NCBI GenBank assembly: GCA_000004985.1
Contig: GG738909.1
Length of the DNA: 64,000 nt
DNA from: Naegleria gruberi
Taxonomy: Eukaryota
Direction: 5' to 3' (one strand)
The notes under the pieces were generated by a model that had not been told where the DNA came from, made no database searches, and saw nothing but the letters and a program-made list of their open reading frames with translations. The position numbers were made by a program, and so were the translations under genes. This document shows, piece after piece, positions 42,755 through 58,877 of this stretch; position 1 is the stretch's first letter; every line of letters starts with the position of its first letter.

Positions 42755-44988
42755 ATGAAACGAGTCTCTCGAATTGGGATTGAAGGAGAGCAGCAACAAG
42801 AACCTCAGCAACGTCGACAACAACAACCACAAACATCAACAACAGAATTAGCATCATCATGTCCGAACCTACATGTATTAGTACAGCACCAACACCAGCA
42901 CCATAATCCAGAGAAGTATCTTGCTGTTACTACATGTACTAATCTTCATACTAAAAGTCCTTCTTCTTCATCGTCATCAACATATGAACATGAGCATCAC
43001 ACACCAGTAACAAACATTGTCATGCAACAAGCAACAATATCGTTACCTTCTTCACCAGTTGTGAATAACGAATCATCTTTACCATCAACATGTTCAGCAA
43101 GGATAACATTACATCCCATCTCATGTAAACGTTGCAAAAGTAGACATACTAGATGTGATAGAGTCTTACCAGCATGTAGTTATTGTTTAAAGAACAATTT
43201 CGAATGCATGTATGAGACTCCAAAAAAGTTAAGGAAGAATTTCAATGCAGAGTTTGTCGATCTGAATGAGAAGACATCAAGTAGCATGCATGCATCAATC
43301 ACACATCCACAACAACCCAAGTCCAAGTATAAGGTCTATAAGTTCAAGTTGAATACCAAAACTAAAGCTGAAGATGAGGAACCAATGGAAGAATGTGAAA
43401 AATATTGTGTAATTGATGATAAACCAATGTCAGCAAGGAAATTAGTGGAAGAACATTCTCATGTGATGGTGATGGTGATGGTGATGGTGATTCCCATAGA
43501 GAAAATGCTACTTTTGAGTTTAGAAATGAAATCAGACTCTTTGCAAAGAACTTTCTTGAATCATCATTGGATTATTATTCGAAACATATTTCGTAAGTTG
43601 AAGTATTTGATTGGAAGAAGTAGTTACCAAGTTGTATATATGGAAGGTTTGGGAATGACATTATGACAAGGGCAGATGTGTTGACTTTGTTGGACTTGAC
43701 AAACTCGGAAAGTTTACAATTATTCCCAGATGATTTGTTAGCACTAATGTATGCCTCACAAGCATTGATTCTGTATTTTAAGGAAGAATGGCGAGAGGCA
43801 GAGGAATACTACAACAAGTGCATTCAAATATTGGAAGATGAAACCGAATCAAATAGGCTTCTTTGTCTTTCTACCACTTTTGAGAATAGGACAATGTTTT
43901 TCACATCGAATAGAATGGATTCTCAGTCTCTGTTCTTGATAGGAACTAGGTTAATATTGTGTCAGTACAAATTGTCGATGGGAGATTTGAAAGAAGCTGT
44001 AAAATTTGTTAGATTGGCAGATGTCATGCTGGATGAAAGGTTTCCTGTATTTAAGGAACAAAGTTTTTTACCAATCAATGCTAATGAAATACCTCAAAAT
44101 CTATTTGATGGAATATCAAAGGAGGAAATTCTAATTATCAAAAAGAGGATTCATTGTGGAATGCTTTTGGATGAATTGAAATTCACACTGGAAAACCTAA
44201 AAGAATACATACAACCTGAATCAATGGTTTCCTCTCCACTTTTCAATAATCAATCATTCATACTGAAAGAAAGTAGTACTTTCCAATTTTCTTCATTTGT
44301 GAATAGATTTGTCTTTGGAAATTCAATAGATATCAGAGGTAGATGTAAATATGAACTGCTGTGTTTGTTGCAGTCCCCTAATGTGATTTTTAGGAATCAG
44401 ACTAATGTACCCTTCTTAATAATAGGAATAGCTGAGAATAATGTGAAACATTTGGAAGAAGAAGCTTTGGAACAATTTGGAATTGGAAAAGTACAAGCTA
44501 TTTCACTGAATGAATCATCAAGTCTAGATTTAAACGAGTTTAATCAAGTAGTATTCGTGTTACAGAAAATATACTTGACTAGTTGCAGTCTGCTTGTTCT
44601 CCACGAAATAATAATCAACAGCTCCCAACAATTTACACAACAATGTGATAGTGAAATTGTTGAAAAGTGTAAAATATGGAGGAGTGCCTTTGCAGACGAG
44701 CTTAGTGATTATTATGCACTACTACCAACAGAAACAGTAAATATTTGCTTATTGGTTGTGGCTGTGTTCGTGGTGGCAAACATTCATGCTGACCTGATTC
44801 GAAGAGAGCTGCTCAACAAAACTCCTCCGCCCGCGTTACTTGTGCGTAGAATGAGGAATGATTTTAGATTGCTCTCACTTTTAAAGAGAAAGTTTTCCAA
44901 CTGGTTTGGAAGTTATCATAATAAGTTGTGCGAGAATATAGAAAACTTATTGAACGAAATTGCAATACTTAATAAAGAAAATTTATAA
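42755..44988 (+). CDS. Zn(II)2Cys6 (GAL4-type, fungal-type) binuclear-cluster transcription factor, with an apparent 1-nt frameshift at about 43651.
   Basis: - CKRCKSRHTRCDRVLPACSYCLKNNFEC has C-x2-C-x6-C-x6-C-x2-C-x6-C spacing.
- The frame switches from 2 to 1 within a run of three G at 43651-43653. Four G would give ...YMEGLGNDIMTRADVL.
- (GTGATG)n hexanucleotide microsatellite at 43458-43490 encodes (VM)n. Confidence 0.6.
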
Positions 44989-47985: not shown

Positions 47986-50900
47986 ATGACATCTCTCAAT
48001 GTTAATGTGTTTGACGATAGAGGTTCAAACAGTTCTCAAAGTAATTCGAGGGTGCTGCTCTCTCCACCTCAGGGAGCCAACAATTACTTACTAATTCCAA
48101 CCAGTAACTATGCAGGATCATCAGTATGTTCCTCTGACAGACATTCCAAAACTGACATTTCAGGTTCTGAAGTTAATGCGGTAACAAAACTGAAGAACTC
48201 GACTTTGGAGTTTGTACTCTTCATACAAGACAACCAAGTGAAGGAGGGAATCTATGGTTATGTGATAACCTTGTTGATTCACTTGTACATGTTTTGGATT
48301 GGAATTTTTCTACCAAATCTTGGACCAGAAATGATGTACGGAGATTGGGGAACATGGATTTTCTCAGTACTCAACTATGCTATTACTCTCTCATTTGAAA
48401 GGATCCCTTATAAGGGAGGTATTGTATTGGCTTTTATTGGAGTAGGTATTGTATTGGTATTTGTAATTCTATTGATCTGGACAATCTTTGCCTACAAGAC
48501 AACCTCCCAACATTTAAAGAACTCGAGAAGAGCTATTGCCATCTTTTCCAAAGTATTTCCATTCATATCAGTACCTCTCTTGTACTTGATGACATTCTCT
48601 CTTGATTGTAATTATACAGTAAGCTCATCAAATCTGAATAGATTTGAATTCTATTCCCATGAGGTGATCCAATGCCACGATACTAGCAATATTATATTTG
48701 TGGTGGTAATGATCTTGGCCATCCTGTTATTGATTATACTCAATGTATTCTCCATGCTCATTGTACCAAACTGCCATCCTCAAAATATAGCTCCATTTGT
48801 GACCGATAATCCAGTTTTCATGAGCTTGTTAGTTGCCTTCAATCTGTGGCAACTCTTTTTACACTTTATCATTCCAACACAATACTCTTTTATGAGAGCT
48901 ATTGTTCATAGTGTTGGATCTATTATTTTAATTATAATTTTTGCCAAGCTGATTCCATTCATTAGAAGAATTGAGAATAGTATTGTATTTGGTTGCCTGT
49001 TGGCTAGATTAGCTTCGAGTATTGGAGCTATTGTAACTTCTATTGTAAATAACCCATCCCTATCAAAGATACTGCCATCGGTGGATAATACACTTGGTGT
49101 TGGACTTGCAGGTCTAACTATTGGTTTGATTATTATTGGTTTTGTGCTTGGTTTCTCCCTTATGGAATTGTATACGAGATTTATTGTGAGATCTATTAGA
49201 AACTTTGTTCTGGAATGTATTCAATCAGATAATGATGAAACAAATCTAGATTCCAAAGAAACTGAAAAATACATTGAGAAAGAAGCACAAATTATTTATC
49301 AACAGTTGGTTGAGTCAAGAAAATTAAGGCACCTTAGAATATTCTTTAAATTTTCTATGAAATTCAAAGAAAAATATCCAACGGAAAAATCAGAAACGCC
49401 CACACAGCACAATCTACTCGATATTTATATTTGTATTGCTCTGATTAAGGGGTTCTCTTCCAATAACCAATTAGATAATGAGATTATCCTTCTCTCTAGT
49501 ATGATTATTGCAAATTATTTGCCAAACGAGGTCAATTCTACAACATTTGCTCAAGGACTTTTGAAGAAAGCTTTTAAAAGAAGACCATCCACTTACTATA
49601 ATTTATTAATTAGTCTAGCTCAAAAACAAGTAGAAGCAACGGTCTATCAAACCAATCCAGAGAGCAGAAACAATGTTGAAATGGCCAAGCTTATTGGTCA
49701 CTTAGAAAGAAGACAGGATGAATTACGAGCACTTCACAGAGCTTTCTGGAAGGAAATCATGCAAGAAAATATCAATCATGAAAAATGTGAATCTATTATT
49801 GTAAGGATTGGGATATTGTCTCATGAATGTGAAACTAAATTCAAGAATTTAATGCACATTTACAAAAACGACAAGACAGTTCTTCGATGTGTTGCTAAAT
49901 ATGTAGAATCTTTTAAATTCAATAAGGAAGCTGCTCAGGAATTATATTCTGAAGCAACAACAATTGAAGAAGAGGATTCCAAACGAATGAATGCCTCCTC
50001 TAAAAGAAGAATTAAAAAGAACCAAAAGAACAGAGTGCATCCTCAACAAATCAGTCACGCTTTTGAGACGTTATCTTATGGTGATGCTAATCATCATGAG
50101 GTAGAGTCCACTGTTGTAGGAGATTTGAATAACGATTTTGGTGGTGTTGAGAATAATCCAGAATTGAAGAAGGAGCTTCTGTTCAGGAATGCATTGGCCA
50201 TCTCACATAAGAATCATTCACATCTCACAATGTTTTTCATTTTCATTGTGCTATCCTTGCTAATTTTGGTTTCAACATTAGTAATGAGCTTGATGTTTTC
50301 GAATTATGTTACTGAGAGCGTACTTGTTGTGGATACTGCCTGTACACCGATTGCATCTGCTATTCGAATTGTTAGTGGAACAAGAAGTTATCAGAGCTCT
50401 CTATTGTTGTACAGTTCCAATTCATCAGCTTGGCCTTCATTATTGGCAGAATATGGCTACTCGAGCCTTTCTGAATTCAAGAAAGCTCACAAGAAAGAGC
50501 TAAGGGATAATATTGATTACTTAATTCTATTGAAAGAGCTAGCACAAACAGCCAAGTTTACCACTGATATGTACTCTGAATTTCATGAATACTACTATAG
50601 CTTTAATCAACCAAAGGCAAATACTAATGGTTTGGAAAAGATTTACAACTCTACCACAGCTATCAATATTACCATTGCAGATATTACTAATTTGGCTATA
50701 ACCTATTCAGAGCAGATTTACAAATTTGAAGATGAGGATTATCTACATACTTTCAGCAGTTATCCTTTCATGATACTATTCAACAATAGGAATATTATGA
50801 CAGCAGCTTATTCTTCATTCTGTTACAAATTTGTTGAGGAATCCAAGAGCTATACCAAGACGATTTCCAATACTTTTATTATTTACTACTCTTGCTCAAT

Positions 50901-53257
50901 TGTTGTTTATTTTACTTACACTGCTATTTATTTGTGCTTTGCAAGATTGGATTTGTCTTTTTTGAAAAAGCTTATTGTTTTATTGGAAAAGAATGTGTCA
51001 AAGCATGAAGCAGGAAAAATGTATCACAATTTGGGCAAGCTAGTCCAAGATGACAGCTCTGTAAGACCGGCCAAGAACTCTGCTTTATACCCTAGGAATG
51101 TTGTGGTAGGATTGGGAATTGTGACAGCAATCTGTGTTGCACTCTGTGCTGGTTTGTTCCTAGCTCAAACTCTCAGCAATTCTCAATACAGCTTTGAGTC
51201 CTATGTCACCATGAGGGATGCTTTCAATGCATTAGAAAACTCCCAATATATTGCAGAAGCGATAACTGAGGAATTCATTAATTTAAAAATTGCTGACAAA
51301 ACATTTATTAATGGATTGGTTTCATCTAATACTGAGCGTTCTGAATCTATTCAAGCATCAATTAAGAAATTAAGATTCTATTGGAATATGTGCATGTATG
51401 GGTCTAATTATTACCCAGATGAGACTCTTGTGATTGGTCTTTTCGAAAAGACTGATTTGATGATAAAGGGAGAAGCTAATTGTACATTTGAAAAGATGAT
51501 TTCACATAATTGCAGCATTGGTGTTGATAAATTGATCACAACTTACACGACTAAAGCCACACAACTCACAGAAGATATTGATCTCAAATCAACAACATTT
51601 GAATCATTATTTGATGACTATTTGGTAGTTAGTTTTTTCTCTACCTATGTAAGCAATTCATTACTGTCATTTTCAGATGTATTTGCTATGGCTGCCTCTG
51701 TTCCATCAGACAAGTTGGTGATTCCATTTGCCATTCTTGGATTTTTGACTTTGTTTATATTCTCGATTGGTATTTACATGTCAATGGGAAAGTATTTCAA
51801 TTCAGTCCAACAACTGCGTCTTCTTTTCAATTATCTACCTCTAGACTTGATGGACTCAAACGAAAATATTAAGAATTATATTGTACATCATCATCTTCCT
51901 GACTCATTCTCAAACATTTTTAGAAGAAAGAAAGGTTCTTCATCAGAGGGCGACTCAAAAGTTCGAAGCATTTTGAACGCATCTGTAGATGGAGCAGTGA
52001 TGTGCAGTGGAGAGAAGGTTGATATTGAAATATTCAATCCAGCAGCTCAAAAGATATTTGGATATAATCAAACAGAAACGATTGGCAGATCATTGTATCA
52101 ATTATTTGAAAAGAATGAGCAATCGAAAATTAAAAACCTCATTGATGAAATGTTAGTGAATGCAGCAAGAGGTGATTCGAAAGGAGATTCTATTGAATTG
52201 GAATGTATCAGAAAGAATCAAACAAGCTTCCCATCACGTGTCAATATTTTTGCCACTCTTCACAATTCTCAAAGTGTTGTCACTTGTTTCATTAAGGATA
52301 TTACAACAGAGAAGAAGCATAATTCATTATTGACAGAAGAAAAGAAACATTCTGAAGAATTATTATTGAATATTTTACCAAGTGCAGTGGCAAGTAAATT
52401 GAAATCAGGAGAAACTTATATTGCAGAGAAATTCAATGATGTTTCATGTTTTTTTAGTGACATGGTTGGATTTACAAAATTAAGTACTGGAATTCAAGCA
52501 TCTGAATTGGTTCAAATGTTGAATGAAATTGTAATTGGATTTGATGATTTGACAGACAAATATAATTTGGAAAAGATTAAAACGATTGGAGATTCATATT
52601 TTTGTGTGGGTGGATTACATGGATTAAATGCACAATCAGATCATCCTGAAAGAATTTTGAGATTTTCCATTGATACATTTGATGTTTTACAAAGATTTAA
52701 TTCAAAATCAGGAAAACAACCATCTGAACAAATTAATATTCGTGTTGGTATTAATACTGGAAGTGTTATTGCAGGTGTTATTGGGAGGAAGAAATTTGCC
52801 TATGTATGTTTTTAATTTCAACATTTTAACATTTTATTGTGTAAATTGTACATTTTCAATATTTCATATTAATATATTAATTAAATAGGATTTATGGGGA
52901 GATACAATTAATACAGCTTCAAGAATGGAATCTAATTCAATTCCAGGAAGAATTCAAATTTCCAGATCAACCTATGAAAGAGTTTATGATTTGGGTTTCA
53001 CTTTTGAAGAAAGACATTTAAATGTGAAAGGAAAGGGTGAATGTATTGCTTACATGTTGCATGAGAAACATCACACTCCAGCTCTTGTTCCATCCTTCAC
53101 TGACATGTTGAGAACAAGTTTAAACATTTTACAAAAGAAAAATTCTGCAAATCTTGAAACATTGAATGAACCCAAAACACCAACAAGAAACAATGATAAT
53201 ATTACCTTGACAATCAATCAAGAAGCCTACCTATCTCCAAATAATACTTTGGAGTAA
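47986..53257 (+). CDS. Multi-TM, PAS-domain, class III adenylyl/guanylyl cyclase, copy 2; join(47986..52803, 52889..53257), about 1728 aa.
   Basis: Same architecture as copy 1. Intron GTATGT at 52804, acceptor AG at 52887-52888 (85 nt), splitting FAY|DLWGDTINTASRMES. There is no intron at the position of the copy-1 41-nt intron. Confidence 0.8.
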
Positions 53258-53840: not shown

Positions 53841-54570
53841 ATGGTTAAAGGTTTACTTTTGACTCTTTTAGCAGTCCTTGTTGTCATTGTTGCTGTTGTA
53901 CATGCACAACAATCAACATGTGGTTCCTTGTCAAACAATTCTCGTTACATTAACCTTGTCGGTTCTTGGAGAGAAACTTCGAGTGGTAAGATTTGGACCA
54001 GTGTTCAACAGGGAAATCATTTCACTTGGACACAACAAGGTACCAATAGAAAGGCAACTGGTTTTGTTGGTAAGTAAACTATAGTTTCGAATGAACATGT
54101 CATTTGTGTTTGTGAAAATAGTTGCTCCATGTCAAATTTCTACTGCAGTTGCATATATTACATTTGATGGAAGTACTCATTGGAAAGTTAGTATTTCCTC
54201 CGATGGAGAAATTATTCGTGGACCTTCAGAAACTTTTACTAGAGTGAATGCTACTCAACCAGTTGCTCAACCAAGAGGTCAATATAAGGAAAAGTCAGGA
54301 AAGATTTGGACTGTCACTGGCTCTACTTGTCATGCTTTTACTTTGCGTAATCAAGGTAAGTTTCGAATAGTTTCAGATAATTAAAAATTCTTAATTGAAA
54401 CAGATGGAAGAACTGCTGAAGGTTTCTACTCAAATGATGAATCTACTGGATTGACTACTATCTATATTACATTCCATGATCCTACTGGAGATACTATTTT
54501 GAGATCAACTACTCCTAATATGGATATTTGGCAATTATCGAATGGTGATGTTTTCAGAAGAGTTGTTTAA
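53841..54570 (+). CDS. Small secreted protein with an internal duplication; join(53841..54069, 54122..54355, 54404..54570).
   Basis: - Signal peptide MVKGLLLTLLAVLVVIVAVVHAQQ.
- Two GTAAGT..AG introns (52 and 48 nt), both phase 1.
- Repeated ..SGKIWT..Q.. modules.
- Function unknown. Confidence 0.5.
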
Positions 54571-54579
54571 GGAAATAAA

Positions 54580-56351
54580 TTAATTTCCCACCAAAGAATA
54601 GTTCAATATTTTCAATTTTTTAGAAATATTAGAATTGACTATTTGGGAAATATCCAAATTAGAATGAATCACATTCAATTCAGTTAAAGTATTTCCAAGA
54701 TTGTCCACCAATTTGGATAGATCAGAAATATTCAAGTTTTTAACTCCATTCAGTGAAAGGCTTTGCAATTTTGGAGGAAATTTACAATCAGAAATCGCTG
54801 AAAGATTGCTGAAATTACAAAAATCCATTTTGAGAATTTTCAAATTTCTAAATTGTTGATTCTCAAAGAAATATTCAAAGTCCTCTTCTTTGAGAAGGTA
54901 ATTATTGCTCAAATCTAAATATTCCAAACTTTTAAATCTGTCATCCTTAACTAGATGTTGAAAAATATCGCTTGTCAAGAAACATGATTGTAAATCAATA
55001 AATTTCACATATTTGAAGGGAGTTTTCATAAACAGTTCAAGATTGGGTTTCTTGACCCTAATTCCGCCTTCATTCATAATTCCATTAAATTCACGGCAAA
55101 CTAATCTCATGTTCAGAATGTCATCCAAATCAAAGAATTCTGAAACAGAAAGAATTTCGTCTCGTTTCAAAGGTCTTGCTGTCCAGATAATTTCAATTTC
55201 TGGTTTGGAAAGAATTGCATCCATTAAATTGGTGAATCGAGTGGTTGGAATATTGACTTTCCAATTTGGATCAACTTTATCCAACCATTTGTCCACTTCT
55301 GAAGGTGTTGGAATGAAATTCAGATCGATCATATCAAATGCTGGTCTTCCAACAACTTCATTAAACATTCCAACTAGAGATTCTCTATGGAAACAACAAT
55401 CAACAACAAAGTGCTTGGCAATTTTAGATTCTCGATCCAAATTAAGAAACTTTTCAATGATAAAGTCTTTCACCTCATTTGGATCTGAATCATTTCCCTT
55501 AAAATCCTTAAAGAATGATGAAAGCTTGTATCCTCTCCTAATCTTTTCTCTCAACACTTCAAATTTTGTGAAAATTACATAAAGTCTCTTGATTTCCTTT
55601 CTTTCCAAAACACTCTGAAAAAGTCTATACGAATCGTCAAATCTATTCAAATCCGAAAGTTCATAACACAATTCATTGCACTGAGATAGAGAAATTACAA
55701 AGCAATGTTTACATTCTGAGCTCGTAATTAAATCTTCCCATCTACTTCTCTCACATCTCTGTCCGCCAGTATCGAAACATGTAACTCCACAAACAGTTCT
55801 TTCAACTATTCCAACAGTTTTCATATAGATTCTAGCATAATCCTTTGGTATTAATCTCTGTTTCATATACCTTTCTAATACATTTCTTTGATTGAAATAC
55901 GAAACTGTTTCACTAATTTCTGAAATACAATTTCCTTCAATTTCCTTTTCATGAATACATTTCTGAAATCCAGAATCGTGATACATTAAATAGAAATATT
56001 CATGTATTTCATCATCCAATTTCTTATTAGGTATTCTATTCTTTACCAGTGCAGAATCTTGAACTTTATCAAATGCTTGTCCAAATTTAGTAAAATCATT
56101 CCTGGATGGATTTATATCGGATAGGAATAGTTTAAAACACCAGGGAAGATGATTATATTTTGTGGTGTTGCAACGGGAAATTGTAGGGTTGTTCAATCCA
56201 AGCAAGGTATTAAACAATGTTGCTAAAATATAGAATATTCGAATCCTTTAGAATATTGTAATTTAATTTCTTACTTTTTCCTGATCCACCACTTCCCAAG
56301 AAAACCTTTGCAAAATAACTATGATTGTTAAATTGTGATTTTACTTACCAT
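54580..56351 (-). CDS. G-alpha-like GTPase domain fused to an F-box-like motif and leucine-rich repeats; complement(join(54580..56222, 56275..56305, 56349..56351)).
   Basis: - P-loop VFLGSGGSGKTT.
- About 120-aa helical insertion.
- Switch I RIYMKTVGIVER; switch II DTGGQRCERSRW.
- CFVISLSQ matches the G-alpha IIFCVALS block.
- NKxD is replaced by TKFE, and the TCAT region by VVDCCF.
- F-box-like LSVSEFFDLDDILNMRLVCREFNGIM, then LRRs to the C-terminus.
- The first two small exons are inferred from splice motifs (introns 43 and 52 nt); the ATG-only first coding exon is tentative. Confidence 0.55.
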
Positions 56352-56550
56352 CTTGTCGTGTGATGCAAAATCTTCTCCCTCATTATGTGTTCATTTTTTT
56401 TGTGAAGTTTCGTCCAAGTTCTTAGAATGTTCCAAACTGACCAGTGGTGGCTACCGTCAATTATTAACAATAGTTCCATTGTTGACCTGATGTTTACTTT
56501 ACAAAAATTTCACAATAAATTGACTTGAGAAATTCAACAAATATTTATCC

Positions 56551-58877
56551 TTATTCAATTGTAGTCTTCATGGTGCTTTCCATAAATTTCAAGTAGATTT
56601 GAGTTGTAATCTCAGTCAATTCATCAAATATATCTTCAAAAGTTGGTCTCTCTTTTGGATCAATGTGTGTACATTTCATTCCCAATAAATGAATCTTTTG
56701 AGCTTGTTCTTGAGTGAGGAAATTGAACCTCTCCACCAATTGAACTACTGAAATAAAACTTCCAAAAACATCTGCCATATTGGCAGGTCTATATCCAGAA
56801 ATGAGTGTGTGCATTGTGACTCCAAAACTGAAAATATCCAAAGCTCTAAACACAAACACTGTGTCTTGTTGCTTATTTCTCAATTCTGGTGCCATGTAAT
56901 ATAATGTGCCAGCAGTGGTGCAGGAATAGGTTTCAGGTTTGTCCACTGTGAGAGAAACATCAAAATCTGACAATTTGACATTATCAATAATCTCAACTCC
57001 ATCAATTCTCATCTTTTTCACCAAAATATTATTTGGTTTAATGTCATAATGAATCACATTCTTGGAATGTAAATATTTCATTGTATCTGAAACCTTGACA
57101 AGGGAGAATAATATTTGAACAAGTTCAATAATTGTTGGTTCAGTTATTGAAAATGAAGATAATGAATCATCCATCTTTTCCATGAATAAATGTTCGATTC
57201 CATCTTGATTATAGTGATGTAACAATTTTACAACACCATCATGTTCACAAATTCCATTCATAATTTCAATCTCACTCGTTCCAATATTATTAGAAATTTT
57301 CTCTGCAACAGGAACATTATTCATCAACACTGAATATACAGCTCCATTTGCCCCATTTCCAAGATATGTTCTATTGGCTCTGTTAATGACAGCCCCTTCA
57401 ATGACTGTGGCTCTATTTAAAGTGATAGTTGAAAGAGTTTCTCTTTTCTTCAATCTGCAAGATAAAATATATGACATATTATATGAAAAATATTCTCCAA
57501 GAGACTTGAACTCATCCAATTTCCTATTCAGCATTAAATCAGCTTGTGGAGCCAACATATATTTGAGAATGCTATTATTTGTGATGATTTCTGATTGATT
57601 GTCCACAAGTTTTGGCAAAGTGTAAATGTTAATGAAATATCTGAATGGCTCAATCTCCCCTTCTGACAATAATTCAACCAATGATTCTGCTTCAACACCT
57701 GAACTGAGTAATATTCTGACATCATGGTGATTTCTCTAATTGTAGATGCGAGTTTTTATAAGTATTGGAAATTTTTACAAATAACAAACCTTAATTAGGT
57801 GATGAGCAATTAATAATCTCATAATTTTTGTAAAATTATTAGTTTTGGCAATTTCAAATGGTGTTTCTCCCTTTCTTGGTGTGAATATTGATTTTTTAGC
57901 AAACAAACTTACACACTAATAACCATAAATGGTATTCCAAATAATTTACACTCAAAAACTTACTGACTATTCAAAAAGTTAGTTGGTTATCTTTAATAAA
58001 TACATACACACTGTGAAATGGTTGAGAAATGATCGATTACGAAATCAACTTACATTCTTTTAATTGTTAATGCTTCATTGTGGAAATGAAATTAAACTTA
58101 CATGCTTTAAAATAATTAATTTGAAAAGTAATTGAAATACTTACACACTATAAAAACGTCAGTAAACTCCAATAGATCACTATCAACTTACACACTAATC
58201 AAATTATTCCTCTGCAAAACAACTAATAAGCATACTTACTCCCTAAAATCTCTTATTCGAAACTGTATATGCTAAACTTTACTTACTCCCTAAAACCATT
58301 CAAAATCTCAAATCTACAAATCTACTTACTCCATTCTTATAATCAACCAATGGCATACTCTTCAGTAAATATTTCACAACTTTAACTTGTCCATATTTGC
58401 AAGCAATGTACAACAAAGTTCTCGCTGGAGGATAGTTCTTATTCTTCTCTGGAATTAAAACATCAAGAAGTGATGGTAAATCTTTCATTCGACTCAATTC
58501 TTTCACATTTCCTTGTTTCACCCAATAGGCAGCCAATAATGCATTGTACATTTGTGGAAACAATCGAATAGTTGTTAGTGCTGGACTCCATTGGGATGGC
58601 TGCACCAATAGTTGGAAAATAGGATGAGATGGTTGTCGGAAAGGATAATTGGAAGGAAAAGAAAAAGTGAAAACAAATGGCTCCTCCTTTCAAATTCCAA
58701 TAATTCATTCATCATTGATCAATAAATTGATAAATCTATTCGAAATAAACTCACATCAACAATTTTAAAAGTTACTGTCCATTCCGAAAGTTCATTGTCA
58801 TTCTTAGGTTCGACAGTAAAGCCAGGATGTGTCAGTTGTTTAATATCTCGCAATTCTCTCTGTACTCTCTTCAACAT
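56551..58877 (-). CDS. UEV (catalytically inactive E2-like) - ankyrin repeat - protein kinase gene. Exons: 58755..58877, 58330..58686, 57790..57870, 56551..57735. Between the second and third exon lies a 459-nt tract of ten mini-introns.
   Basis: - Exon A: MLKRVQRELRDIKQLTHPGFTVEPKNDNELSEWTVTFKIVD (E2 N-terminus).
- 68-nt intron (GTGAGT..AAAG).
- Exon B: EEPFVFTFSFPSNYPFRQPSHP...SQWSPALTTIRLF. It has the E2 core, including the invariant SQWSPALT, but lacks the HPN...Cys segment. ANK repeats follow.
- ANK exon: GETPFEIAKTNNFTKIMRLLIAHHLIK.
- 54-nt intron.
- Kinase exon: LGNGANGAVYSV, HYDIKPNNILV, DFD, APE. Confidence 0.55.
57871..58329 (-). other. Tandem array of 10 canonical mini-introns (GTAAGT...AG, 40-48 nt) separated by exactly 3 nt, lying in an intron position of the UEV-ANK-kinase gene.
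   Basis: - On the plus strand, ACTTAC (or ACATAC) occurs at 57907, 57958, 58002, 58048, 58096, 58139, 58186, 58234, 58281 and 58324.
- Each is followed by three nucleotides and then CT. Read on the minus strand this is AG-NNN-GTAAGT.
- Donor-to-donor spacing is 43-51 nt. Confidence 0.6.

What the first reader, a model, noticed from the sequence alone, without database searches (positions are those of the whole stretch)
54580..56351. G-alpha-like GTPase with degenerate guanine-specificity motifs fused to F-box and LRR
The ORF contains the hallmark G-alpha elements: a P-loop GSGGSGKTT, the long helical-domain insertion, RxxTxGIxE in switch I and DxGGQRxERxxW in switch II.

NKxD is replaced by TKFE and the TCAT motif by VVDCCF. 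Both normally contact the guanine base. The C-terminus continues into an F-box-like motif and leucine-rich repeats, which is an SCF substrate-adaptor layout.

This could be a nucleotide-switch-regulated E3 adaptor, a G-alpha-derived pseudo-GTPase scaffold, or a G-alpha with altered nucleotide specificity.
Basis: partly seen in the sequence, partly recalled or inferred. Interest (0 to 1): 0.6.

Follow-up and report, generated by a model that had tools for sequence, protein, structure and literature searches.

The report
Naegleria G-alpha fused to F-box/LRR
This Naegleria gruberi gene joins a divergent G-protein alpha-like switch domain, which lacks its catalytic arginine, to an F-box plus leucine-rich-repeat module of the kind that feeds proteins to SCF ubiquitin ligases; the fusion is real, but GTPase/F-box fusions in Naegleria have already been published.

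Summary
The window is Naegleria gruberi DNA. The minus-strand gene at 54580-56351 is NAEGRDRAFT_73957 (XP_002671039.1).

- **G-alpha domain:** the N-terminal ~300 residues match Pfam G-alpha at E=3e-40, helical insert included.
- **One gene:** one uninterrupted ORF spans both halves. The same layout occurs in two N. gruberi paralogs and one environmental relative.

The switch-I catalytic arginine is absent (Tyr here, Met in both paralogs), and so is its P-loop Glu partner. G5 aligns as DCCF, so the Cys is kept.

Retained: P-loop Lys/Thr, the Mg-binding Thr, DxGGQ and the switch-II Trp. G4 is TKFE.

There is no evident N-terminal Gβγ/lipid segment and no free C-terminal tail, so it is unlikely to be a heterotrimeric subunit.

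My inference is an SCF substrate receptor carrying a slow-hydrolysing NTP switch.

Herman et al. [quoted passage not shown] It is therefore a new variant, not a new kind.

The parts
54580..56351 (-). It is NAEGRDRAFT_73957 / XP_002671039.1 / D2VY36. The public model (468 aa) starts at Met106 and lacks the P-loop.
56349..56383 (-). Alternative first exon (model A, MREKILHHTTR + 2 nt). The same frame stays open up to ATG 56479. In model B only ATG 56349-56351 is coding. In the model-B frame an in-frame TGA at 56391-56393 blocks the published 'MTHNEGEDFASHDK' extension.
56306..56348 (-). Intron 1 (43 nt in model B; 56319-56348, 30 nt, in model A). GTAAGT donor; AAG or TAG acceptor. The choice is unresolved.
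56275..56305 (-). Short exon encoding VFLGSGGSGK. The P-loop GSGGSGKTT spans 56275-56296 plus 56218-56222. The Glu of the canonical GAGESGKST is Gly here.
56223..56274 (-). Intron 2 (52 nt), phase 1, directly after the P-loop Lys. The same position and phase occur in paralog loci L001 and L003.
55354..56222 (-). Remainder of the G-alpha domain (residues 27-316, model A numbering): helical domain plus the Ras-like half.
   Evidence: PF00503 E=3.2e-40; best solved relative N. fowleri Gα7, 6ne6, E=5.8e-19
55801..55842 (-). Switch I, DYARIYMKTVGIVE (154-167). Tyr159 (55825-55827) sits where the catalytic Arg should be. Thr162, the Mg ligand, is kept.
55738..55773 (-). Switch II, DTGGQRCERSRW (177-188). 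Asp, Gly, the catalytic Gln and the reporter Trp are kept.
55558..55569 (-). G4 motif TKFE (245-248) in place of NKxD. Paralogs have TKYE, NKMD and SKHQ.
55390..55401 (-). G5 motif DCCF (301-304) opposite TCAT. Paralogs have NSAF, ISAN and ISAS.
55171..55350 (-). Linker (318-377). It has low-confidence structure and its length and sequence vary among paralogs. It ends in the conserved WTARP.
55069..55170 (-). F-box (378-411), LKRDEILSVSEFFDLDDILNMRLVCREFNGIMNE. The model shows three helices at 380-387, 392-401 and 403-409.
   Evidence: PF00646 22.9 bits vs cut-off 20.5 on the C-terminal fragment; 4 of 4 family members hit; 14.5 bits in the full-length context
54583..55068 (-). About 7 leucine-rich repeats of the FBXL / RNI-like type (412-573). 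Model strands are at 413-417, 431-436, 461-463, 489-491, 514-516, 541-543 and 564-566.

Best explanation
The gene encodes a chimeric protein. An N-terminal divergent G-alpha-like NTP-binding switch domain is joined by a flexible linker of about 60 residues to an FBXL-type module (F-box plus about 7 LRRs). It belongs to a small N. gruberi subfamily with at least three fused paralogs and one G-alpha-only relative.

Shown:
- The domain identities.
- The single ORF spanning both halves.
- The family, and that its G-alpha domains group together.
- The motif states.

Inferred:
1. The F-box docks the protein on Skp1-Cul1, so it acts as an SCF substrate receptor.
2. The G-alpha domain still binds Mg-NTP, because the P-loop Lys/Thr, the Mg-binding Thr, DxGGQ and the switch-II Trp are unchanged in the three family members that cover these motifs, although those members share only about 30% identity.
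3. It hydrolyses very slowly, and probably exchanges nucleotide quickly, because the arginine finger and its P-loop Glu partner are both gone.
4. Base recognition is loosened or changed (TKFE, DCCF).
5. It does not work as a heterotrimeric subunit. It has no myristoylation signal and, in the two shorter gene models, too few residues for an αN helix. Its α5 runs into the linker instead of ending in a free receptor-binding tail.
6. The nucleotide state of the switch regions either gates what the LRR module presents to the ligase, or itself recruits G-alpha-binding partners (RGS proteins, effectors) for ubiquitination.
For: - **G-alpha identity:** Pfam G-alpha E=3.2e-40, full length. Many solved G-alpha chains match, the best being N. 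fowleri Gα7.
- **Residue mapping:** mapped against Gαi1.
- **Family search:** an exhaustive phmmer of 1.84 billion representatives finds only four proteins below 1e-30. All carry G-alpha followed by the same C-terminal module.
- **Single ORF:** continuous ORFs span both halves in the window, L001, L003 and L005.
- **P-loop exon:** the intron after the P-loop Lys is at a conserved position.
- **F-box by sequence:** above the Pfam cut-off on the C-terminal fragment, and hit in all four members. A family profile hits the FBXL3 F-box and Skp2 in the PDB.
- **Single origin:** the G-alpha domains of the three full-length members group together in 161 of 200 NJ bootstraps.
[quoted passage not shown] YchF/Ola1 has NxxE in place of NKxD, which is thought to account for its altered nucleotide specificity (PMC8779481; adenine-nucleotide preference of E. 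coli YchF: abstract of PMC3583859). Herman et al. 2021 proposed GTPase-dependent ubiquitination for Naegleria GTPase/F-box fusions.
Against: - No transcript, protein, nucleotide-binding or Skp1-binding data exist for this gene.
- The F-box scores only 14.5 bits in the full-length context.
- hhalign against Skp2 gives 23.6% probability, and only over LRRs.
- The 'LP' proline of the F-box is absent in all four members. FBXL3, a Skp1 binder with a solved structure, also has LL there.
- This copy is the most degenerate of the family at G4/G5 and is rich in Cys substitutions. That could mean relaxed constraint.
- None of the three accessions appears among the N. gruberi counterparts listed for N. 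fowleri G-alpha genes. I infer there is no N. fowleri ortholog, so the family is young.
Confidence: 0.55

Rival explanations
1. Pseudo-GTPase scaffold. The G-alpha-like domain no longer binds nucleotide and serves only as a rigid protein-binding domain placed N-terminal to an FBXL module, much as KDM2A/B carry other domains N-terminal to their F-box/LRR.
For: The arginine finger and P-loop Glu are lost. G4 is TKFE and G5 is DCCF, so both base-contacting motifs are altered. The Pfam G-alpha score (138.7 bits) is well below the 220-530 bits of ordinary G-alpha proteins scanned.
Against: Every phosphate- and Mg-contacting residue that can be mapped is kept: the GxGGSGK[ST] P-loop, Thr162, Asp177, Gly180 and Gln181. 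These are unchanged across paralogs that are only about 30% identical overall. One paralog keeps a fully canonical NKMD plus SA. TK[FY]E is shared by two paralogs, which looks like selection rather than decay.
Confidence: 0.2
2. The C-terminal LRR module is not an SCF adaptor. The F-box-like helices are only an LRR cap, and the LRRs bind an effector or fold back on the G-alpha domain, as in LRR/GTPase pairs such as Roco proteins or RanGAP-Ran.
Against: The F-box hit is above the Pfam cut-off on the fragment and is found in all four members. A gap-free alignment to the Skp2 and FBXL3 F-boxes conserves the hydrophobic core and the VC(K/R)xW/F motif. The longest and best structural matches are F-box/LRR proteins.
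Confidence: 0.12
3. A decaying, functionless young paralog of a lineage-specific expansion. N. gruberi has about 60 G-alpha genes.
For: It is the most degenerate family member at G4/G5. I infer it has no N. fowleri ortholog. Herman et al. describe birth-and-death evolution in other Naegleria GTPase/F-box clades.
Against: An intact reading frame of about 545 codons in 33% GC DNA, where stop codons are frequent. Splice signals are intact and the intron position is conserved. Core residues of both domains are conserved.
Confidence: 0.08
4. Gene-model artefact: two adjacent genes, a G-alpha gene and an F-box/LRR gene, read as one.
For: The NCBI model of paralog XP_002678776.1 (P0005) ends soon after the G-alpha domain. 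It uses a predicted GTGAGT...TAG intron that shifts the frame.
Against: There is no stop codon and no Met-initiated restart between the halves in any of the four loci. The unspliced frame through the F-box/LRR is the one conserved between paralogs. Herman et al. manually corrected all three N. gruberi models to the long forms.
Confidence: 0.03

Closest known systems
Naegleria Gpa18 (N. gruberi XP_002678171.1 / N. fowleri V212_g10873), 'G alpha with F-box domain' (Herman et al. 2021, PMC8296547, Suppl. Material 4 and Table S8)
   Same: A G-alpha domain and an F-box in one Naegleria polypeptide. The authors suggested GTPase-dependent ubiquitination.
   Different: Gpa18 is an otherwise canonical G-alpha: an MGQ start, GTGGVGKST, KTTGIVE and NKKD. 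Its F-box is nested inside the GTPase domain, and it is paired between N. fowleri and N. gruberi in Table S8. Here the F-box follows the whole G-alpha domain and is followed by LRRs. The arginine finger is lost, and I infer there is no N. fowleri ortholog.
Naegleria Rab-like, Rho and Ran GTPases with F-box extensions (same paper)
   Same: A GTPase switch domain fused to an SCF-docking F-box. These are lineage-specific expansions with birth-and-death dynamics.
   Different: Those are small GTPases with the F-box described as a conserved N-terminal extension (stated for the Rab-like clades), and the quoted passages mention no LRR module for them. Here the switch is a G-alpha with a helical domain, and the F-box/LRR is C-terminal.
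FBXL family of SCF substrate receptors (FBXL17, Skp2, KDM2A/KDM2B, FBXL2, FBXL3, FBXL5)
   Same: A three-helix F-box directly followed by RNI-like LRRs. These are the best structural matches. KDM2A/B also carry other domains N-terminal to the F-box (my own knowledge).
   Different: As far as I know, no FBXL protein carries a GTPase domain. Sequence identity is only 11-18%. The F-box proline is missing, as in FBXL3. Skp1 binding is untested.
Heterotrimeric G-protein alpha subunits (Pfam PF00503); closest solved structure N. fowleri Gα7 (PDB 6ne6)
   Same: Ras-like domain plus helical insert, P-loop, Mg-binding Thr, DxGGQ and switch-II Trp.
   Different: No arginine finger and no P-loop Glu. G4 is TKFE and G5 is DCCF. 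No lipidation signal, no evident N-terminal helix in the shorter gene models, and no free C-terminal tail.
RhoBTB and Rab40 (GTPase domains fused to cullin-adaptor BTB or SOCS-box modules)
   Same: A GTPase fused to a cullin-RING substrate-receptor module. Herman et al. name RhoBTB among ancestral or widespread multidomain Ras-superfamily proteins. The link of these proteins to cullins is my own knowledge; the reviews found mention them but I did not read them.
   Different: Those use Cul3 or Cul5 adaptors and small GTPases, not a G-alpha with an SCF (Cul1) F-box.
YchF/Ola1 (G4 = NxxE)
   Same: Asp is replaced by Glu at the last position of G4. [quoted passage not shown]
   Different: It is an unrelated Obg-class GTPase. 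Here the Lys of G4 is kept. This is an analogy only.

Membership tests
G-alpha (Pfam PF00503) | Profile match above the curated cut-off, covering the Ras-like and helical domains | tested here: met
   138.7 bits against 48.8, E=3.2e-40, profile positions 25-329 of 333 in one stretch
G-alpha (Pfam PF00503) | P-loop GxGxSGK[ST]T | tested here: met
   GSGGSGKTT. The Glu of GAGESGKST is Gly in all three members with an N-terminus.
G-alpha (Pfam PF00503) | Switch-I catalytic arginine (Gαi1 R178) three residues before the Mg-binding Thr | tested here: not met
   Tyr159 here and Met in both paralogs. Thr162 is kept.
G-alpha (Pfam PF00503) | Switch II DxGGQ with the catalytic Gln | tested here: met
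   D177-T-G-G-Q181, and W188 is kept
G-alpha (Pfam PF00503) | Guanine-recognition motifs NKxD and TCAT | tested here: not met
   TKFE and DCCF. Paralog 3 keeps NKMD and ISAN.
Functional heterotrimeric G-alpha subunit | N-terminal helix with a lipid-modification signal for Gβγ and membrane binding | tested here: not met
   Only 4 to 19 residues precede the P-loop glycine in models B and A (up to 51 if ATG 56479 is used). No MG start. The upstream kinase gene ends at 56551.
Functional heterotrimeric G-alpha subunit | Free C-terminal α5 tail for receptor coupling | tested here: not met
   α5 (SLVGMFNEVVG) runs straight into the linker and the F-box/LRR.
Functional heterotrimeric G-alpha subunit | GTP binding and hydrolysis | not testable with these tools
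   Needs recombinant protein.
F-box proteins, FBXL class | F-box profile match | tested here: inconclusive
   PF00646 scores 22.9 bits (cut-off 20.5), E=7.6e-5, on the C-terminal fragment, and all four family members hit. In the full-length protein it scores 14.5 bits. The family profile hits the FBXL3 F-box at E=0.034.
F-box proteins, FBXL class | Three-helix F-box immediately followed by RNI-like LRRs | tested here: met
F-box proteins, FBXL class | Conserved Leu-Pro at the start of the F-box | tested here: not met
   L378-K379 here; LL, LI and LI in the relatives. FBXL3 also lacks the Pro: 'NLLQDIIL'.
F-box proteins, FBXL class | Binding to Skp1 and assembly into SCF | not testable with these tools
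   No complex prediction or experiment was available.
Naegleria GTPase/F-box fusion proteins (Herman et al. 2021) | A Ras-superfamily or G-alpha GTPase domain and an F-box in one Naegleria polypeptide | tested here: met
   See the rows above. The paper lists this gene as 'Gpa ... LRRs' with no F-box noted.

The most novel reading that the evidence does not exclude
The G-alpha-derived domain is a working switch with changed nucleotide preference: TKxE in G4, by analogy with the NxxE of the ATP-preferring YchF/Ola1. It stays NTP-bound because it has no arginine finger, and it directly gates an SCF ubiquitin ligase. That would be a receptor- and Gβγ-independent route from a G-alpha-type switch to protein degradation, possibly aimed at RGS proteins or cyclases of Naegleria's very large G-protein network.
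Probability: 0.15. Interest if true: 0.7.

Novelty: new variant of a known kind. Interest (0 to 1): 0.4.

Why it matters
G-alpha proteins are almost always stand-alone subunits controlled by receptors, Gβγ and RGS proteins. A G-alpha domain wired directly to an SCF substrate-receptor module would be a compact link between nucleotide switching and ubiquitination.

It is also a natural experiment on what a G-alpha fold does without its arginine finger and with a changed G4 motif.

It adds a distinct architecture (G-alpha, then F-box, then LRR) to the GTPase/F-box fusions already catalogued in Naegleria.

It also shows that the public RefSeq models of all three N. gruberi copies hide the full architecture: two lack the P-loop N-terminus, and one reads the F-box out of frame and ends early.

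The practical reach is modest. The family seems restricted to the N. gruberi lineage, and its function is untested.

Tried and rejected
- **Single-sequence AlphaFold** of the 546-aa exon-3 product was useless: mean pLDDT 36.
- **The search for homologous proteins**, tried three times (single sequence, C-terminal profile, full-length profile), returned almost only the query's own entry. It missed paralogs that are demonstrably in the collection (versus 24 and 26). I therefore did not use it to judge taxonomic distribution.
I used the exon-3 translation instead.
- **The metagenome scan** with the C-terminal profile found only a bacterial LRR protein, L004.
- **hhalign** of the family C-terminal profile against Skp2 was weak: 23.6% probability, LRR region only.
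- **tblastn** of the protein against the window found no second copy.
- **Anantharaman et al. 2011** (Gene 475:63), the comparative-genomics paper most likely to list G-alpha architectures, is not held. I could not check it.
- **The first NJ script** timed out. A second had invalid distances. The corrected run is.
- **A longer N-terminal helix:** only 167 nt (72 nt if ATG 56479 is the start) separate the gene from the upstream kinase gene's stop.
- **The published 'MTHNEGEDFASHDKM...' start:** rejected because the window has an in-frame TGA directly before THNEG.
Full report
**What is there**

The window is AT-rich eukaryotic DNA, 32-36% GC, with short GTAAGT...YAG introns. The long minus-strand ORF 54580-56217 (545 codons) is 100% identical to a 468-aa 'predicted protein' of Naegleria gruberi. 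That protein is NAEGRDRAFT_73957 / XP_002671039.1 / D2VY36. The public model starts at an internal Met (MYHDSGF) and so lacks the P-loop.

Upstream of the long exon, a 52-nt intron (56223-56274) splits the codon after the P-loop Lys. A short exon encodes ..VFLGSGGSGK. Two paralogous loci recovered from a metagenome carry an intron at exactly the same position and phase (GGSGK plus 1 nt, then GTA...). The P-loop exon is therefore genuine.

**The 5' end is not settled**

- **Model A:** ATG 56383 plus a 30-nt intron, giving 573 aa. The same frame stays open up to ATG 56479.
- All of these are in frame.
- Model B uses the splice junction chosen in a published manual curation. Its intron length falls within the roughly 40-70 nt range of the other introns I read in the window and in the paralog loci.
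- Model A gives a more complete β1 strand.
- The published extension 'MTHNEGEDFASHDK' is not possible in this sequence, because TGA immediately precedes THNEG in that frame.
- Residue numbers below follow model A. Subtract 15 for model B.

**The G-alpha half**

Pfam G-alpha matches residues 17-316 at E=3.2e-40, covering profile positions 25-329 of 333. No competing GTPase family appears. Many solved G-alpha chains match, the best being N. fowleri Gα7, 6ne6, at E=5.8e-19.

Mapping onto Gαi1 gives:

| Element | This protein | Gαi1 equivalent | State |
|---|---|---|---|
| P-loop | G20-SGGSGK26-T27-T28 | GAGESGKST | Lys and Ser/Thr kept; Glu43 is Gly |
| Switch I | R157-I-Y159-M-K-T162 | R176 ... 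R178 ... T181 | Mg-binding Thr kept; catalytic Arg178 is Tyr |
| Switch II | D177-TGG-Q181-RCERSR-W188 | DVGGQRSERKKW | intact |
| G4 | T245-K-F-E248 | NKKD | altered |
| G5 | D301-C-C-F304 | TCAT | Cys kept, Ala is Cys |

The arginine finger is missing. It is Met in both paralogs as well, and the P-loop Glu that pairs with it (PMC9283941) is Gly in all three.

From established knowledge of R178/R201 mutants, I expect very slow hydrolysis. Losing the Glu-Arg pair probably makes exchange easier.

The residues that touch phosphate and Mg are unchanged across paralogs sharing only about 30% identity. I read that as retained NTP binding.

For G4, Thr in place of Asn is common in other GTPase classes (my own knowledge). 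The Asp-to-Glu change recalls the NxxE of YchF/Ola1, which is thought to underlie its altered nucleotide specificity (PMC8779481; adenine-nucleotide preference of E. coli YchF: abstract of PMC3583859). TK[FY]E is shared by two paralogs, while a third keeps NKMD. The ancestor was therefore a normal guanine binder.

The protein has no MG lipidation start and, in models A and B, too few residues for an N-terminal helix. Its α5 helix runs on into a linker. Canonical coupling to Gβγ and receptors is thus unlikely; this is an inference.

**The C-terminal half**

- In the full-length protein the F-box and LRR hits are sub-threshold: F-box 14.5 bits, LRR_4 E=0.0027.
- On the C-terminal fragment alone, PF00646 scores 22.9 bits against a cut-off of 20.5. 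All four family members hit both F-box and LRR_4.
- A family profile picks out the FBXL3 F-box, Skp2, FBXL2 and KDM2B from the PDB, all weakly.
- The segment LKRDEILSVSEFFDLDDILNMRLVCREF aligns without gaps to the Skp2 F-box, with the hydrophobic core and the VC(K/R)xW/F motif conserved.
- The usual Pro is absent. It is also absent in FBXL3.
- An AlphaFold model built from the five-sequence family alignment is confident over residues 60-250 of the fragment: pLDDT 70-93, pTM 0.68. It shows three short helices followed by seven strand-helix repeats.
- Foldseek against the PDB ranks FBXL17, Skp2, KDM2A and FBXL17 again in the top four places.
- Generic LRR proteins such as RanGAP1 and NLRs score close behind. 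The LRR fold is certain. The F-box assignment is well supported but not proven.

**One gene or two**

There is no stop codon between the halves. An exhaustive phmmer search of 1.84 billion cluster representatives found 1151 G-alpha-like hits but only four below 1e-30:

- the gene itself;
- N. gruberi NAEGRDRAFT_49587 (P0002);
- a continuous-ORF version (P0003, metagenome contig L001) of N. gruberi NAEGRDRAFT_66027;
- a partial environmental relative (P0004, L005).

All four carry G-alpha followed by the same F-box/LRR module in one ORF. None of the other 146 listed G-alpha representatives matches the C-terminal profile.

The RefSeq model of NAEGRDRAFT_66027 removes a predicted intron that shifts the frame. 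It reads the F-box out of frame and stops. The unspliced frame is the one conserved between paralogs.

The G-alpha domains of the three full-length members group together in 161 of 200 NJ bootstraps against the 45 nearest G-alpha representatives. This suggests one fusion event followed by duplication.

**What was already known**

Herman et al. 2021 (BMC Biol 19:142, PMC8296547) re-annotated Naegleria GTPases. Supplementary Material 4 and Table S8 report the following:

- N. gruberi has 60 G-alpha genes and N. fowleri more than 30.
[quoted passage not shown] This is Gpa18, a different and otherwise canonical G-alpha.
- This points 'to GTPase-dependent ubiquitination'.

It also lists the two paralogs in long form.

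Each of the three accessions occurs only once in that file. None therefore appears among the N. gruberi counterparts listed for N. fowleri G-alpha genes, and I infer there is no N. fowleri ortholog.

A fourth N. gruberi protein in that table, XP_002671657.1*, has GSGGSGKSS, no switch-I Arg, and SKYE. It ends after α5. It is 36% identical to this protein over the Ras-like half. The degenerate catalytic features are thus shared with a relative that has no F-box/LRR tail in its listed model.

Bosch et al. 2022 (PMC9283941) describe 13 N. fowleri G-alpha proteins and mention no such fusion. Full-text searches found no paper describing a G-alpha/F-box/LRR protein.

**Mechanism and verdict**

The architecture is solid. 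The most likely function is an SCF substrate receptor whose N-terminal G-alpha-like domain is a slowly hydrolysing NTP switch. That switch would either regulate the receptor or supply a second binding surface. This is inferred, with confidence about 0.55.

The main rival is a nucleotide-free pseudo-GTPase scaffold (0.2). Smaller rivals are a non-SCF LRR module, a decaying paralog, and a gene-model artefact.

Relative to the literature this is a new variant of a known kind: Naegleria GTPase/F-box fusions. The points not previously recorded, as far as I could find, are:

- the F-box in this subfamily;
- the FBXL-type layout C-terminal to a complete G-alpha domain;
- the loss of the Arg finger and P-loop Glu in all members that can be checked.

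Interest is moderate (0.4).

Noticed in passing
window 47986-52815 (+): A 1609-codon ORF with TPR, PAS and adenylate/guanylate cyclase catalytic domains (Guanylate_cyc E=1.5e-32). The cyclase match stops at profile position 126 of 183 at the ORF end, so the gene probably continues past an intron. Cyclases are a classic G-alpha effector class, and this one lies about 1.8 kb from the G-alpha/F-box gene. N. fowleri has about 80 putative cyclases, and if N. gruberi is similarly rich the adjacency may be chance.
   Followed up: partly
window 56551-57681 (-): A protein kinase gene (Pkinase E=1.6e-32) lies directly upstream on the same strand. Only 72-200 nt separate it from the possible start codons of the G-alpha/F-box gene.
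   Followed up: partly
window 53841-54570 (+): A small predicted secreted protein: hydrophobic N-terminus, two introns of about 50 nt, and an internal repeat around 'SGKIWT'. It has no Pfam match. It converges on the G-alpha/F-box gene, and the two stop codons (54568-54570 and 54580-54582) are only 9 nt apart, so the 3' UTRs must overlap.
   Followed up: partly
window 42755-43666 (+): This ORF carries a fungal-type Zn(2)-Cys(6) binuclear cluster domain (PF00172, E=6.6e-10). I did not expect that domain in a heterolobosean.
   Followed up: no
L001 1589-1705 and NCBI XP_002678776.1 (P0005): The RefSeq model of the paralog removes a predicted GTGAGT...TAG intron. This shifts the frame, reads the F-box out of frame and terminates. 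It is either a wrong model or a G-alpha-only splice isoform.
   Followed up: partly
L001 2260-2718 (-): A 152-aa product with two ubiquitin domains is encoded immediately downstream of the paralogous G-alpha/F-box/LRR gene on the metagenome contig.
   Followed up: no
window 56391-56393 (-) and Herman et al. 2021 Table S8: The published manually corrected model of this gene begins 'MTHNEGEDFASHDKM'. In the window that frame has TGA directly before THNEG. The ATG at 56394 is one base out of frame.
   Followed up: yes
L005 1-150: In the environmental relative the residue before GGQR reads 'LLTGGQR', with no Asp. It follows a possible very short GTAACC...CAG intron. Either the gene structure is unresolved or the G3 Asp is lost.
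   Followed up: no
proteins P0024, P0060, P0043 (one search hits): Other unusual G-alpha architectures appear among the nearest representatives: ankyrin repeats then G-alpha, N-terminal LRRs then G-alpha, and G-alpha followed by C2H2 zinc fingers. Their source organisms were not checked.
   Followed up: no
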